Assembly: GCF_011386835.1 (NCBI RefSeq)
Contig: NC_088792.1
Coordinates: forward strand, 167,834,001-167,898,000
Direction: 5' to 3'
DNA length: 64,000 nt
DNA from: Chrysemys picta bellii
Taxonomy: Eukaryota
A program made the position numbers. Position 1 is the first letter of the stretch. Each line of letters begins with the position of its first letter. Of the stretch, positions 6,001 through 42,500 are shown piece after piece.

Positions 6001-9000
6001 AAGGTAATTGGCCGCTGAGTTCCTAGTTATTAAACAGACTTCAGAAACACTGATGAATAGGCCAGCTCCAAGAGCTAAAATGTATAGCATTTTTATGCTT
6101 GCACCTCCCACATGACTAAGATGTATTTGGCTGGAGTGAACTTAAACTTGACATTTTTCATGATAAGGATTGCACACAAGTGATCCCTCACCCACTAGTG
6201 CAGGGGTGGCCAACCTTAGCCTGAGAAGGAGCCAGAATTTACCAATGTACATTGCCAAAGAGCCACAGTAATAAGTCAGCAGCTCCAGCGCCTCCCGCCC
6301 ACTGGTGCCTCCCCCTCCCTATCAGCCGTTTCGTGACATGCAGGAGGCTCGGGGGGAGGGGAGAGGGAGCAGTGAGGGCATGGCAGGCTCAGGGGAGGGG
6401 GCGGGAAGGGTGGAGTGGGGGCAGGGCCTGTGGCAGAGCCAGGGGTTGAGCAGTGAGCACCCCCCAGCATGTTGGAAATTTGGCGCCTATAGCTCCAGCC
6501 CGGGAGTCGGTGCCTATATAAGGAGCCACATATTAACTTCTGCAAAAAGAACAGGAGTACTTGTGGCACCTTAGAGACTAACAAATTTATTAGAGCATAA
6601 GCTTTCGTGGACTACAGCCCAGAAGAGCTGCACGTGGCTCCAGAGCCACAGGTTGGCCACCCCTACCCTAGTGTATACTTCCAGTGTGGCTGATTATTAA
6701 GTTGTTATTATTATTTTTAAAGAAGTGGTAGCGGTAGAAACCCAACTCAGTAGTATAGAACAACCCCCTCCCTCCAAATCACAATTTCTTGTTAAAGCAA
6801 AGCTACAATTCAAATTTGCAGTAAAACAAAATTAATAAAATCATATGAGAAGGAGCTTCTGATCCTCTTCTGTATTTATAATTCAGACAACCTAGACAAA
6901 TGTTGCTGATTCTGAAGTTGGCAATGTAGTTGACCGTCCATTCAGCTGGCCATTGTTTAAAGGGCATTTGACACTGAGTTACATAGGGCCCAGTCCTGCA
7001 AGACACTGAGCCTCCTTTGCTCCCATAAGCATCCATAAGAATCAAGGGTGCTCAGACCCTTACAAGTTTGGACTTTTATGTGATGATGTAGCTGGAATGC
7101 TGACTGGATTCTTTGTCCTCTTCTACCATAGAGAAATTGGAACATTTTCAACCAGCTCTAATGTTGACATTCAGAGTCCTGTCAGTGGCATAACTTACAA
7201 GTGATATTTGATGAAGTTTACCACAGTATATACTGTGTAGTAGTGGATAGTGCAGTTTAGGCTGCAAACTACTGCTGTGCTAACCTCCTGTTTTTACTCA
7301 CAGCTTTCTGAAACAATAAGCTTTTTAAACTGAAGTTTTTATGCTTGATACGGTCCTAAAACCATGGAAACTATCATATAAATATACACCACACAAGATC
7401 TAGATACGTAGGTGGATAGATAAAGTCTGTATTATGCTAACTGGATGAAATAAATAGTTAACTTTCTAAAACACAATCTTAAGAAAACGATGGTAAACAG
7501 AAGGTGTTTACATCCAGGAGACTAGGGTAATACATTTATCAAGAAAGAAAACCCAAAGATAAGGTAAAAGAAAACAAATATGCTGAACAAAATTGGGATG
7601 ATTTAAAAAACGAAATCTATGATAAAAAAAATATCTGTATGCTAATCCTAATGTTTTCAAATGGAACAACAGTATGGAGAGGAAAAAATCCACATTTAAA
7701 AAGAAGTGTGCAGCAAACAAAAATAATTATGAATGGAAAGATCATCATGAAATAAGAAGCAGATTGAATGTGTGTGTTCTTTAACAGTGAGGAATTTGTC
7801 AGTGTAAAGTTACGTTCAGCAGTGTGACTATTATAATTAAAGAATATGTCTACTTAGGCAAGATGTTTAAAGCCATCTTGTTAACACAGAGATAACCTGT
7901 TAAAATACTTATTATAATGAGAGAAAATTGTACTTTTCCTCTACTTTCAGCTTCCTTTGAATGGTCTAATACATTTAATTGCTCATGTCTCTTCCAGGGA
8001 ATGTTTGCTAGTGTCACTATTGATGTAAATACCAAGATGATGGGTGTCTTAGGGCTTAGAAAACACTAGACACACAGAAAACAAGCCTATATGCTTCAAG
8101 CCAGTGGATGTTTGGTTATTAGTTTGAATAGGAGTCAGACCAGACATGAGAAAGATGAGTAGATCTCTAGTTTGCCATGAAATATGCAAAGCAAGGCAAA
8201 CATCTTTCACACCTCTAAATTTTGGAAATCGTTTAAGATTGACTTATAGTTACAAACACATCATATTACTGCATTATAGCATGGATAAAGATATGTTGTT
8301 GTCAGATTCATTTGATAGCAAACAAACAATTATAACTGTTTTGCAGCTATTAAAATTGTTTGTAACCATAAGTCAATCTTAAATGATTTCCAAAATTTAG
8401 AGGTGTGAAAGATTTTTGCCTTGCTTTGCATATTTCATGGCAAACTAGAGATCTACTCATCTCTCTCATTTCTGGTCTGGTCTGACTCCTATTCAAACTA
8501 ATAACCAAACATCCACTGGCTTGAAGCATATAGGCTTGTTTTCTGTGTATCTAGTGTTTCTAAGCCCTAAGACACCCATCATCTTGGTATTTACATCAAT
8601 AGTGACACTAGCAAACATTCCCTGGAAGAGACATGAGCAATTAAATGTATTAGACCAATAACTTTCAAAAAAGTCTTGACCATGACTGGCCCTGATCTTG
8701 CAATACTTGCATATAAGGATATTTCTGCAGGAATGGTCCCAATGCAACTACTTATATGCATAAGTATTTGTAGGATTTGGGTCTAAAAGGTGAATTACTA
8801 TGAAAAGGTTTGAGGAGAATCTGTTCAGTCATTTTTGAATTATGCAAGGCTTAAACAAACAAAAAACCCACTTTTCTTTCCCTACAGATGGCTGAACTTT
8901 GAAACATTGCAGTTAAACATTGAGGTGTATGTCCATAATAAAAACCTGAGAAGAATTTGCTAGTTAGTAATAAATTTATAAGCAACTGAGAAGTCACGTC

Positions 9001-39500: not shown

Positions 39501-42500
39501 TGCCAGCTAAGTCCTGAATGCAAAAGCTAATGATAAATGAGGCAGAAAGAACACCGTTTCATTTTCTGATCCAAGGTGGGGCTGTACCTGGTCTAGCTTC
39601 CTCTCAGGAATCCTTGACAAGTCAGCAGACCGTGGGGGCTTGTATTTTGATCTCCCTCCTCAGAGCTTAGATCATTCCCATCAGAGTAAGTGCCTGCTCC
39701 TGATGCTTGTTGATCAGCTGTTCAGCCAGAGGTGGAAAAGACATCCCACAACCAGCTGAAAGTCATGATTCTAGTAAAGGAAGATCTATTCACCTGCTGC
39801 AGTATTGCTCCAACTAGGATAATCAGCATTCATGAAAAGTGCTCCCAACTAGGCTATATAGGAGTCAGCCAAATGGAGTGAGTGGTCGGGGGGGGGGGGA
39901 GATAAAGAAGCCAGGATAGAGGAGAGCTAGGAAGAAAGGAGGAAGAAGGAATCAAGAGGAGAGAGAATGAGAAGGAAGTTAGAGATGAAGACAGGGGGAG
40001 CAAACAAATGGTACAAAAATTTAGAGTTGGGAAAGAGAAGTTACCCATAGACAGAACAAAAACTGAAAAGACTAAAGATGAGAAAGGGGACAAGAACAAA
40101 AGAAAAATCCAAGGGAAACGTTAAGCTTTTTTGTTAATAGAGTCATAAGGTTGTGGAAGAAACCTATCTATATAAATGCACATTGTATATGTGGATAGAG
40201 CAGGGGCAGGTTCTATATACTGCCCTTTGAACTGTAAGTTCTGATATCAAGCCCACACAAATCCCAATAGCCCTCTTCTCCCCAGTGTAGAATTCAGGTA
40301 AATGTCATTGACTTCCATCCTGTACGGGGAAAGAATAGGACTGCAGGATGAGTTTGCAGAGTGGCAGTCACAAAAAAAGCCTCTTTGGACCCATAAACCA
40401 AGCGAGTCTGATGTGGAGTCACTGAGAGAGAATAAATGTGGAGGGCCAGAATGTTATTTTTAGAGTTACTTTTCTGTCTGGAACTGGCAATTTACTATAC
40501 TTACTGTGGCAAAGCATGGAAATGACACATGATATATAAATGTCATTGATTCCGTGTCCCTGGGCTGTTCAGAAGTGGCCTTTCACACATCCTTTGAGTG
40601 CCAGAGCTGCTCACACCCTTGTCGTTGAACAATTAGCCAAGAGGCATGAAAGAGCAGCCATTTGTTATCAGACATAGTTGTGTGTTTGAGTAAGGGTAAA
40701 GGATAGAAATAGCTGAATGGCTACAGACAAGGTAACCAGGCAGTTTTAGTGAACAATTAAATTTGACTGGTGTGGATAAATGAAGATTAACAAACTTATT
40801 TTTATTTAGCATATTTTATCTCAAAGGGTGTGAGCCTTAACTGGTGACCTGCAAAGGTGAAAAAAAATAGGGTAAAATGTTTTGCTTCTTTATGCTGTAT
40901 AAAGACAACAATCACACAGTGTGTGTAATAGGGGAGAATTTGGCTCGTATTTTATGTTAGAAATTCTATTGTGTCTACTCTGTATTTCTGGGTAACTACA
41001 GATGGCTGGGGAACTGGTTGGACTTTGACATAAGAGACATCAGACACATGAAAACTGATTTAACTGGGAGGAAAAAATGGTTTTACTCAGATTATTTGAA
41101 AACCTCTTTTTTGTTTAACCTCTATTTAACTCAAACACCTGAATAAAAAGCTAGGAGAAAAGCTGTCTACATTAAAGATTCCACACCTCTGCCCCTTCAT
41201 TTATCTGTATATGCTACAAGATCATCATTATAGGAGGAGAGTGGTTTTGTGGGCAAAAGGGCGGGGATCACTTGGGATTGAAGTGGGAGAGGGGAAAGGA
41301 ATCTTGAAGTAAAAGAGAAAAACAGAGGAAGGAGTCAGAAAGGGGAAAGAATATTGAGAGTGAGGCTGGGTAGCTAAAGGTGGAGGTGGTAGGAGAGGGG
41401 CAAGATGAAGGGAAACCCAATCCCCAATGGTAACACAACAAACATGGGGAAAATATATCCAGACTCCAAATTTCAGAGTTGATTTTACCAGGAGGCTGTG
41501 AAGCCTCCTCCCAGCTGCTGTTACTGAGCCCTCTATCCCGGGTAGGCCCATCTGGGTCCAGTGGAGGAGAGGTCAAGGGAAACTGGAAGACCTTAATTTA
41601 TCTCTAGCTGCTAACTGGCCGGGGCTGCTTTTGGAAAGGAACACAGAGGTGGTCCTTCCAAGAACATGCAAAGACATATGAGATAGGTAGGAGGAAGTAT
41701 GAACTGCCTCTAACCATGCTTTGCCTATTCCATGAATCAATCAAATACGTAGGATGAAATCCTGCCCAGGGATTTTGCCACTGAATTCAGTGAGTCAGGA
41801 ATGGATTCCCCCTCATTCTCTGGGTCTGTCAATGCGCCATCATTGAGGAGCAGTAAATTCACTTTTAAGATAAAGGTCTAAGTGTGAGAGAGGGGAACAG
41901 TAGGGCTCAGGGAGCAGGAAGGACATTATAGACTAGTTTGGGTCCAGATTTTCACAAGAGCTCAGCATCCACCATCAGGGGCAGGTTTTGGTGACGAGGT
42001 GGGAGTTAAGCACTTTTAAAAACCTGCCCCAATGGTGGATGCTGAGCTCTTGTGAAAATCTGGCTGTTAGTGTCACAATTTCAGCTGCCTAGTGCTGGTT
42101 ATTATTATGGTTTGTATTGTGGAGCCCTAGGCATGTACCAGGACCTCCTTGTGCTAGGCATTGTACAAACATACTGTCCCTGCCCCAAAGAGCTTACAAT
42201 CTAAATACTTTTGAAAATATGTTCTGTATTTAGGCGCCTGAAAGAGCACGGAGCTCTTTTTGAAGTTGGGCCCCAGTTTTGTGTGCTGAGCACTTGACAA
42301 TGAGCCCTCCTAAACTTTCATATCGCACAGGTTGTAATTTTGCAAGTGCTAAGTACACCCAATTCCCATTGACATCAGTGGGTGTTGCTTGTATGTGGTG
42401 TCTGTATGCTCAGCTCCACAGTTCTTGTTATCCAGTTACTGCACGTCTGTGTTTCATTCCTGTATAGTCAAGAAATGAAGACTTAAAAAAACAAAAGTCT

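What the first reader, a model, noticed from the sequence alone, without database searches (positions are those of the whole stretch)
7962..42063. Recurrent short-range inverted templated duplications: four independent events in 34 kb
Four segments are inverted copies of sequence lying within 0.03-1.5 kb: about 297 bp (7962/8357), 88 bp (18556/20120), 117 bp (22397/23105) and about 45 bp (41944/42019). None has a TSD or poly(A) tail, and no other copy was seen in the window. Three sit in hairpin- or cruciform-prone sites (two MITE palindromes, one (TA)n tract). Seen: the duplications and their context. Inference: they are scars of break repair or template switching (Pol theta-mediated templated insertion, FoSTeS/MMBIR, or foldback) seeded by the many palindromic MITEs. 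This could be an under-described mutational process in turtle genomes. Each event would also form dsRNA in the CDH6 pre-mRNA.
Basis: partly seen in the sequence, partly recalled or inferred. Interest (0 to 1): 0.65.

Follow-up and report, generated by a model that had tools for sequence, protein, structure and literature searches.

The report
Local inverted duplications, mostly repair scars
Short stretches of this non-coding region have been copied backwards into nearby sites, a known kind of scar left when broken or stalled DNA is repaired, so the finding is real but ordinary.

Summary
All four inverted pairs exist at the stated coordinates and are far beyond chance. They are not one kind of thing.

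- **22394-22513:** a 120-bp inverted copy of 23105-23224. It splits the window's only long (TA)n tract, so it is a templated insertion whose direction can be read.
- **18556-18643:** an 88-bp, 100% identical inverted copy of 20120-20207. It lies inside a transposon-like relic that resumes after it. This matches the published "Pack-TIR by gap filling" class.
- **7962-8657:** a 696-bp palindrome with 297-bp arms (98.3% identical) and no target-site duplication. It is most likely a fold-back duplication, but which arm came first is unknown.
- **41944-42063:** a 120-bp hairpin. Its arm ends share a motif with three other sites, so it may be an interspersed element.

Junction overlap is 0-1 nt, so no polymerase (Pol theta included) can be named. 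An objective map places only the (TA)n event in a hairpin-prone site. No cadherin exon was found, so CDH6, transcription and the turtle origin stay unverified. Genome-wide copy number and outgroup state could not be tested.

Verdict: new members of a known kind, with modest interest.

The parts
7962..8258 (+). Ev1 left arm of a 696-bp palindrome
   Evidence: 98.3% identical to the reverse complement of 8357-8657
8259..8356 (.). Ev1 spacer. Its outer ~16 nt on each side are still weakly complementary, so the tool puts the unpaired core at 8274-8341.
8357..8657 (-). Ev1 right arm
8689..8783 (.). Diverged hairpin-forming repeat 31 nt right of Ev1
   Evidence: DNA fold -16.9 kcal/mol, z -3.0, 0 of 200 shuffles as good. 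It does not pass the objective palindrome filter.
18527..18875 (.). Transposon-like host element of Ev3, with imperfect terminal inverted ends and nested internal palindromes
   Evidence: Its terminal 16-mer recurs exactly at 51978-51993. The 11-mer motif has 5 sites against 0.77 expected.
18556..18643 (-). Ev3 derived copy: an 88-bp insertion inside the host element
   Evidence: 88 of 88 identical to the reverse complement of the source, and the host element continues after it
20120..20207 (+). Ev3 source segment
22378..22393 (.). Left remnant of the (TA)n tract, 16 nt
22394..22513 (-). Ev2 derived copy: a 120-bp insertion splitting the (TA)n tract
22513..22564 (.). Right part of the (TA)n tract, 52 nt; the only AT array in the window
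23105..23224 (+). Ev2 source segment. Its right end lies inside an interspersed repeat (about 23196-23242).
   Evidence: the relative at 2371-2463 runs uninterrupted across the breakpoint
41944..42063 (.). Ev4: 120-bp hairpin with 46-nt arms and a 28-nt loop; origin ambiguous
   Evidence: (-54.6 kcal/mol, z -13.8)

Best explanation
Three of the four features (Ev1, Ev2, Ev3) are independent, genuine local inverted duplications. They are scars of DNA synthesis that used a nearby stretch of the same chromosome as template in reverse orientation while a break or stalled fork was being repaired.

Shown:
- Ev2 is a 120-bp insertion into the only long (TA)n tract. It was copied from 0.6 kb downstream.
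- Ev3 is an 88-bp insertion inside a transposon-like relic. It was copied from 1.5 kb downstream, and the host sequence resumes on the far side.
- Ev1 is a 297-bp inverted copy 67-98 nt from its partner.

Inferred, and the mechanism I commit to:
1. A double-strand break forms at a fragile site. (TA)n cruciform cleavage is the clearest case.
2. Long resection exposes a 3' tail.
3. The tail folds back and primes on its own strand 0.07-1.5 kb inward.
4. About 90-300 nt are synthesised.
5. The new strand unwinds and is joined to the other end with 0-1 nt of overlap, an NHEJ-like capture.

The polymerase cannot be read from the sequence.

Ev4 is either a small event of the same sort acting on an old repeat fragment, or simply an interspersed hairpin element.
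For: - The pairs are real and not chance.
- Each is a two-copy pair in 64 kb lying within 0.07-1.5 kb. Two random sites fall within 1.6 kb with P = 0.049 and within 0.7 kb with P = 0.022, so these are local duplications and not dispersed family members.
- Ev2 polarity: the copy is flanked by 16 nt and 52 nt of (TA)n, the only AT array TRF finds. The source continues into an interspersed repeat whose relative at 2371-2463 is uninterrupted across the breakpoint.
- Ev3 polarity: the copy sits about 25 nt inside an element whose remaining ~230 nt follow directly after it. This excludes an inversion flanked by duplications.
- No TSD above the null for Ev1, Ev3 or Ev4.
- Arm differences look evolutionary: Ev1 has 4 of 5 transitions, and Ev2 has 3 of 4 transitions with 2 at CpG.
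- Local repeats of 20 nt or more within 3 kb are 20 inverted against 3 direct.
- Literature: single-copy Pack-TIRs arise by transposition-independent gap filling, mostly from under 5 kb away (PMC8277862, sections 7-8 read). Fold-back synthesis plus NHEJ capture has been shown in yeast (PMC11724301, passages read).
Against: - Junction overlap is only 0-1 nt at all four junctions of Ev2 and Ev3, which is weak for any microhomology-primed model.
- The fold-back insertions documented in yeast are mostly 5-34 bp (PMC11724301). Hominid template-switch events have a median of 12 nt and a maximum of 128 nt, within hundreds of nt (PMC7954356). So 88-297 bp at up to 1.5 kb is at or beyond the described range.
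- Ev1 cannot be polarised.
- Ev3 is 100% identical, so an assembly error is not excluded for it.
- Genome-wide copy number of every arm is untested.
- The inverted excess includes palindromic transposons.
- Only 1 of 3 definable insertion sites lies in an objectively hairpin-prone interval.
Confidence: 0.55

Rival explanations
1. Template switching at a stalled replication fork (FoSTeS/MMBIR-like, or a long version of the four-point short-range template switch). The nascent strand switches to the opposite strand within the fork, copies 90-300 nt and returns, with no double-strand break.
For: The orientation is always inverted and the source is in cis within 1.5 kb. (TA)n and AT-rich tracts are known fork-stalling sites, and AT-rich enrichment is reported around template-switch loci (PMC7954356, section 11 read). 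Ev4 and the 32.3-kb hairpin fit the size range of described events.
Against: There is no microhomology of 2 nt or more at the switch points of Ev2 and Ev3. The distances (0.6 and 1.5 kb) and the Ev1 length (297 bp) exceed the described range: maximum 128 nt, search space of hundreds of nt (PMC7954356, passages read). Sequence alone cannot separate this from fold-back repair of a break.
Confidence: 0.2
2. Capture of a free nearby DNA fragment (for example a displaced flap or excised piece) by non-homologous end joining at an unrelated break. The inverted orientation would then be a coincidence.
For: Both junctions of Ev2 and Ev3 are blunt or overlap by 1 nt. Insertions of distant genomic fragments at breaks are documented in yeast (PMC11724301, passages read).
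Against: All of the local single-copy duplications are inverted (Ev1-Ev3; 3 of 3 has P = 0.125 under random orientation). All sources lie within 1.5 kb, which free-fragment capture does not require.
Confidence: 0.1
3. The features are transposable elements. Ev1 and Ev4 would be elements with long terminal inverted repeats (foldback or MITE type). Ev2 and Ev3 would be pairs of independent insertions of one family in opposite orientation.
For: The outer ~30 nt of the Ev4 arms share a motif with three other sites in the window. Besides Ev4's own two arms, there was 1 independent match to the 23-nt pattern against 0.01 expected (alignment). The window is rich in palindromic elements: 19 intervals and a clear TIR element at 51342-51962.
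Against: There is no TSD above the null for Ev1, Ev3 or Ev4, although the same test did detect a 7-nt flanking repeat at 32.3 kb. No further copy of Ev1-Ev3 occurs in 64 kb. The Ev2 unit is part unique sequence and part half of a repeat, cut inside that repeat. The Ev3 copy has no ends of its own and sits inside another element. No transposase or reverse-transcriptase domain was found in 392 ORFs.
Confidence: 0.08
4. Assembly artefacts, such as chimeric fold-back reads or mis-joins.
For: Ev3 is 88 of 88 identical. No reads were available to check.
Against: Ev1, Ev2 and Ev4 differ between arms by substitutions that are mostly transitions, some at CpG. All have unique spacers of 28-1476 nt. The window has no N and no contig break.
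Confidence: 0.05

Closest known systems
Single-copy Pack-TIRs made by transposition-independent gap filling (PMC8277862; sections 7 and 8 read)
   Same: In Ev3 a relic TIR-type element holds a non-element segment whose parent lies in cis 1.48 kb away. That paper reports that most parents lie under 5 kb away, and that the elements are single-copy with small or no microhomology (median 2 bp).
   Different: Here the breakpoint is ~25 nt from the element's end, not internal. Microhomology is 0 nt. The host family could not be matched to a consensus. 'Turtle' occurs 0 times in that paper's main text, and its supplementary species tables could not be opened.
Fold-back (snap-back) templated inverted insertions at double-strand breaks (PMC11724301; passages read)
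   Same: An inverted copy of sequence next to the break, synthesis from a folded-back 3' tail, and capture of the other end with little overlap.
   Different: The yeast events are mostly 5-34 bp with a 41-nt loop. Here the copies are 88-297 bp and the loops are 67-1476 nt.
Short-range template-switch mutations, four-point model (PMC5453318 and PMC7954356; passages, abstract and section 11 read)
   Same: A reverse-complement copy of nearby sequence that creates inverted repeats or hairpins, with an AT-rich context. Ev4 and the 32.3-kb hairpin fit this scale.
   Different: The described events have a median of 12 nt and a maximum of 128 nt, within hundreds of nt. Ev1 is longer, and the Ev2 and Ev3 sources are farther away.
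(TA)n cruciform fragility (PMC13669725; search listing and start of abstract only)
   Same: Ev2 sits in a (TA)n tract of at least 34 repeat units in total, a sequence type reported to form cruciforms that are cleaved.
   Different: That literature concerns expanded tracts in mismatch-repair-deficient human tumours. No break was observed here.

Membership tests
Templated (fold-back) insertion at a break | The inserted segment matches a nearby sequence in reverse orientation | tested here: met
   Ev2 116 of 120, Ev3 88 of 88, Ev1 291 of 296
Templated (fold-back) insertion at a break | The insert interrupts host sequence that is otherwise continuous, so derived and source copies can be told apart | tested here: met
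   Ev2: (TA)n on both sides, and the source is continuous with a repeat relative. Ev3: the host element resumes after the insert. Ev1 and Ev4 cannot be polarised.
Templated (fold-back) insertion at a break | Microhomology at the priming junction | tested here: not met
   0-1 nt at all four junctions of Ev2 and Ev3
Templated (fold-back) insertion at a break | Insert absent at the orthologous locus of an outgroup | not testable with these tools
[quoted passage not shown] | Junction microhomology of about 2-6 nt and short, often stuttered templated stretches | tested here: not met
   0-1 nt overlap. One 6-nt stretch (18550-18555) of unknown origin precedes the Ev3 insert. The typical TMEJ range is recalled, not taken from a call.
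Pack-TIR (PMC8277862) | Host is a TIR transposon with both termini kept | tested here: inconclusive
   The ends are 9 of 12 complementary by eye. The terminal 16-mer recurs at 51978-51993, and the motif has 5 sites against 0.77 expected. No second copy of the whole element is in the window.
Pack-TIR (PMC8277862) | Internal non-element segment with a parental copy in cis | tested here: met
   the parent lies 1476 nt downstream
Pack-TIR (PMC8277862) | Single copy in the genome | not testable with these tools
   Only the 64-kb window could be searched
Short-range template-switch mutation (four-point model) | Copied fragment of tens of nt, with the template within tens to hundreds of nt | tested here: inconclusive
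   Ev4 (46 nt, 28-nt loop) and 32.3 kb (43-46 nt) fit. Ev1 (297 nt) and the Ev2 and Ev3 distances (591 and 1476 nt) lie outside the range given in PMC7954356.
MITE / TIR transposon insertion | Target-site duplication | tested here: not met
   the best flanking direct repeat is 3 nt for Ev1, Ev3 and Ev4, which the null reaches in more than half of 2000 random intervals
MITE / TIR transposon insertion | Many dispersed copies | tested here: inconclusive
   No other copies of Ev1-Ev3 in the window. The Ev4 arm-end motif occurs at three other sites. The genome as a whole is untestable.
Inversion with breakpoint duplications (staggered breaks) | The arms bound an inverted segment, so host sequence does not resume beside the arm | tested here: not met
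   Host sequence resumes immediately after the Ev2 and Ev3 copies

The most novel reading that the evidence does not exclude
This lineage accumulates mid-sized (about 90-300 bp) inverted templated insertions from 0.1-1.5 kb away at a density far above what short-range template-switch surveys report in hominids. (TA)n tracts and relic TIR transposons would be the break sites. This size and distance class falls between the scales that current template-switch and structural-variant methods examine.
Probability: 0.12. Interest if true: 0.55.

Novelty: new member of a known kind. Interest (0 to 1): 0.3.

Why it matters
These are clean natural examples of cis inverted templated insertion. Two can be polarised from the sequence alone, and their sizes and distances sit at the upper edge of what has been catalogued. 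If a genome-wide census confirmed a high density, it would point to a class of mutation missed between indel-scale and structural-variant-scale methods. It would also point to a route by which long hairpins arise in non-coding DNA. On present evidence it is an anecdote from one window.

Tried and rejected
- **Second copy of the Ev3 host element.** I aligned the five sites carrying its terminal motif, hoping to find an 'empty' copy. They share only the terminal motif, at 43% mean identity. blastn of the host pieces, kept apart, found no second copy. The pre-insertion state is therefore unknown.
- **Objective hairpin-prone map.** Only the Ev2 insertion site fell inside an interval, so the enrichment claim fails. 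P of at least 1 in 3 is about 0.15 at 5.4% coverage (my own arithmetic).
- **The Ev2 source end as a strong hairpin.** The 101-nt fold has z -0.55, which is not significant.
- **Pfam on 392 stop-to-stop ORFs of 55 aa or more**. 0 reached a curated cut-off. There were 3 sub-threshold hits (TMEM132 Ig 17.9 bits, keratin matrix 16.8, DUF7519 20.9). No cadherin, transposase or reverse transcriptase was found. ORFs under 55 aa were not scanned.
- **Rfam, gathering threshold:** 0 matches.
- **A wrong Ev2 bound.** The Ev2 row used a bound set 3 nt too far (22391/23227) and gave 7 differences. One search, with the right bounds, gives 4 of 120.
- **The pair at 51342-51962** turned out to be the terminal repeats of an ordinary element.
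- **Literature search combining turtle terms with mechanism terms**. None of the 12 listed papers, out of 349, held a turtle term.
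Full report
**Observation**

| Event | Arms | Match | Bits | Between arms |
|---|---|---|---|---|
| Ev1 | 7962-8258 / 8357-8657 | 302 alignment columns | 492 | 67-98 nt |
| Ev3 | 18556-18643 / 20120-20207 | 88 of 88 | 159 | 1476 nt |
| Ev2 | 22394-22513 / 23105-23224 | 116 of 120 | 199 | 591 nt |
| Ev4 | 41944-41989 / 42018-42063 | 46-nt arms | 102 | 28 nt |

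- The tool's low ungapped identities for Ev1 (91% in the inner part) and Ev4 (87%) come from indels.
- With gaps, Ev1 has 5 substitutions in 296 aligned bases plus a 1-nt and a 5-nt indel. Ev4 has 1 substitution in 45 plus one indel.
- In 30 dinucleotide-preserving shuffles of the window, no local inverted match reached 60 bits; the best was 46.4.
- None of Ev1-Ev3 has another match in the window with E below 0.015.
- Two random sites in 64 kb fall within 1.6 kb with P = 0.049 and within 0.7 kb with P = 0.022. Two-copy pairs this close are therefore local duplications, not chance neighbours from a dispersed family.

**Ev2 (shown)**

- The left copy lies between 16 nt and 52 nt of (TA)n. This is the only AT array that Tandem Repeats Finder reports in the window.
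- The right copy lies in ordinary sequence. Its last ~30 nt run into an interspersed repeat, and a relative of that repeat at 2371-2463 is uninterrupted across the point where the duplication stops.
- So 23105-23224 is the source, and 22394-22513 is a 120-bp inverted insertion into a (TA)n tract.
- The four differences are 3 transitions (2 at CpG) and 1 transversion. At one position the repeat relative agrees with the copy and at another with the source, so both have aged since the event.
- Junction overlap is at most 1 nt on each side.

**Ev3 (shown)**

- The left copy lies about 25 nt inside an element (18527-18875).
- That element has imperfect inverted ends and nested internal palindromes.
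- Its terminal 16-mer recurs exactly at 51978-51993. Its 11-mer motif occurs 5 times against 0.77 expected.
- The element continues directly after the insert. This is therefore a simple insertion. It is not an inversion bounded by duplications, and not a larger element with 88-bp terminal repeats.
- Both junctions have 0 nt of overlap with the source flanks.
- No second copy of the host element is in the window. The bases lost at the site, and the origin of the 6 nt (18550-18555) before the insert, are unknown.
- I did not cut the insert out and close the ends. The pieces were compared apart.

**Ev1**

- It is a 696-bp palindrome. As RNA it would fold at -540.7 kcal/mol, z -42.7 against 20 shuffles.
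- It has no flanking direct repeat above the null (3 nt), no other copy in the window and no protein domain.
- Four of its five substitutions are transitions, so it is an aged, real structure.
- Which arm is derived cannot be told from the window.

**Ev4**

- It is a near-perfect hairpin (-54.6 kcal/mol as DNA, z -13.8) without a TSD.
- The outer ~30 nt of both arms share a motif with 27404, 62018 and 42326 on the reverse strand.
- Either an old repeat fragment was duplicated in reverse, or this is an interspersed hairpin element. I cannot decide between these.

**Context claims**

- An objective map of short-range palindromes (arms of 18 nt or more, 75% or better, 120 nt or less apart) gives 19 intervals. 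With the events themselves excluded, they cover 2.9% of the window, or 5.4% with a 50-nt margin.
- Of the ten edges tested, only the two at the Ev2 insertion site lie inside an interval.
- Ev1's right edge is 31 nt from a diverged 95-nt hairpin repeat (z -3.0). Ev3's right junction abuts a small stem (z -3.6).
- The (TA)n association is striking, since it is one tract of about 70 nt in 64 kb. The general 'seeded by MITE palindromes' claim is not supported.
- Local repeats of 20 nt or more within 3 kb are 20 inverted against 3 direct, but that count includes palindromic transposons.

**Gene context**

- 0 of 392 stop-to-stop ORFs of 55 aa or more reach a Pfam cut-off. There is no cadherin domain, transposase or reverse transcriptase. 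Rfam gives nothing.
- CDH6, transcription, dsRNA formation in vivo and the turtle origin are therefore unverified.

**Mechanism (inferred)**

- The common anatomy is inverted, in cis, within 1.5 kb, 88-297 bp copied, and blunt or 1-nt joins.
- This fits a resected 3' tail folding back on its own strand, limited synthesis, and end joining.
- Fork-level strand switching is the main rival, and sequence alone cannot exclude it.
- Nothing identifies Pol theta.

**Comparison with what is known**

- Ev3 matches single-copy Pack-TIRs formed by transposition-independent gap filling (PMC8277862, sections 7-8). That paper reports 370 cases in 100 animal genomes, with 56.9% of parents under 15 kb away and most of those under 5 kb, and a median microhomology of 2 bp.
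- Fold-back insertions are shown experimentally in yeast, mostly at 5-34 bp (PMC11724301, passages read).
- Hominid short-range template switches number 4017, with a median of 12 nt and a maximum of 128 nt (PMC7954356, passages read).
- The process is therefore known. These examples sit at its large, far end.
- A search pairing turtle terms with mechanism terms listed no turtle paper among the 12 shown out of 349.
- The supplementary tables of PMC8277862, which may list turtle counts, were closed.

**Unchecked**

- Genome-wide copy number, outgroup state and read support were not checked.

Noticed in passing
A hairpin at 32336-32419 has 36-nt arms at 86% identity. A 43-46-nt inverted copy of its core lies at 32279-32324 (93-95%). 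Unlike Ev1-Ev4, the whole structure is bounded by an exact 7-nt direct repeat (32275-32281 and 32421-32427; 9 nt by eye). Only 10 of 2000 random intervals reach 7 nt or more, so it may be a mobile-element insertion or a staggered-break fill-in.
   Followed up: partly
window 51325-51970: An ordinary TIR-type element with 62-66-nt terminal inverted repeats at 88%. It has the same end motif and GTCGAC-rich subterminal palindromes as the host element of Ev3, and another element end is nested or adjacent at 51434 and 51983.
   Followed up: partly
window 5502-5908, with relatives at 6543-6621, 33851-33921, 38629-38717 and 54002-54203: A 407-bp palindromic element (arms about 90% identical). It belongs to the only clearly multi-copy family in the window.
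   Followed up: no
window 18628-18650: At the right junction of the Ev3 insert, the four bases after the insert extend a short palindrome formed with the insert's own end (11-nt arms, 91%). This could be a snap-back-templated filler, host sequence, or chance (about 1 in 256 for 4 nt).
   Followed up: partly
window 47000-50000: The most GC-rich part of the window (0.51-0.55). It holds an A25 run at 47660-47684 and an 83-bp C-rich tandem repeat at 49071-49243. No protein domain was found in it.
   Followed up: no
window 58001-59000: Strong strand asymmetry (GC skew 0.39, AT skew 0.26), with a purine-rich 23-bp tandem repeat at 58197-58248.
   Followed up: no
window 7956-7961 and 8664-8669: The RNA fold of Ev1 pairs six further bases of the two flanks across a 6-nt bulge. 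This may be a chance extension of the palindrome or a remnant of an older boundary.
   Followed up: no
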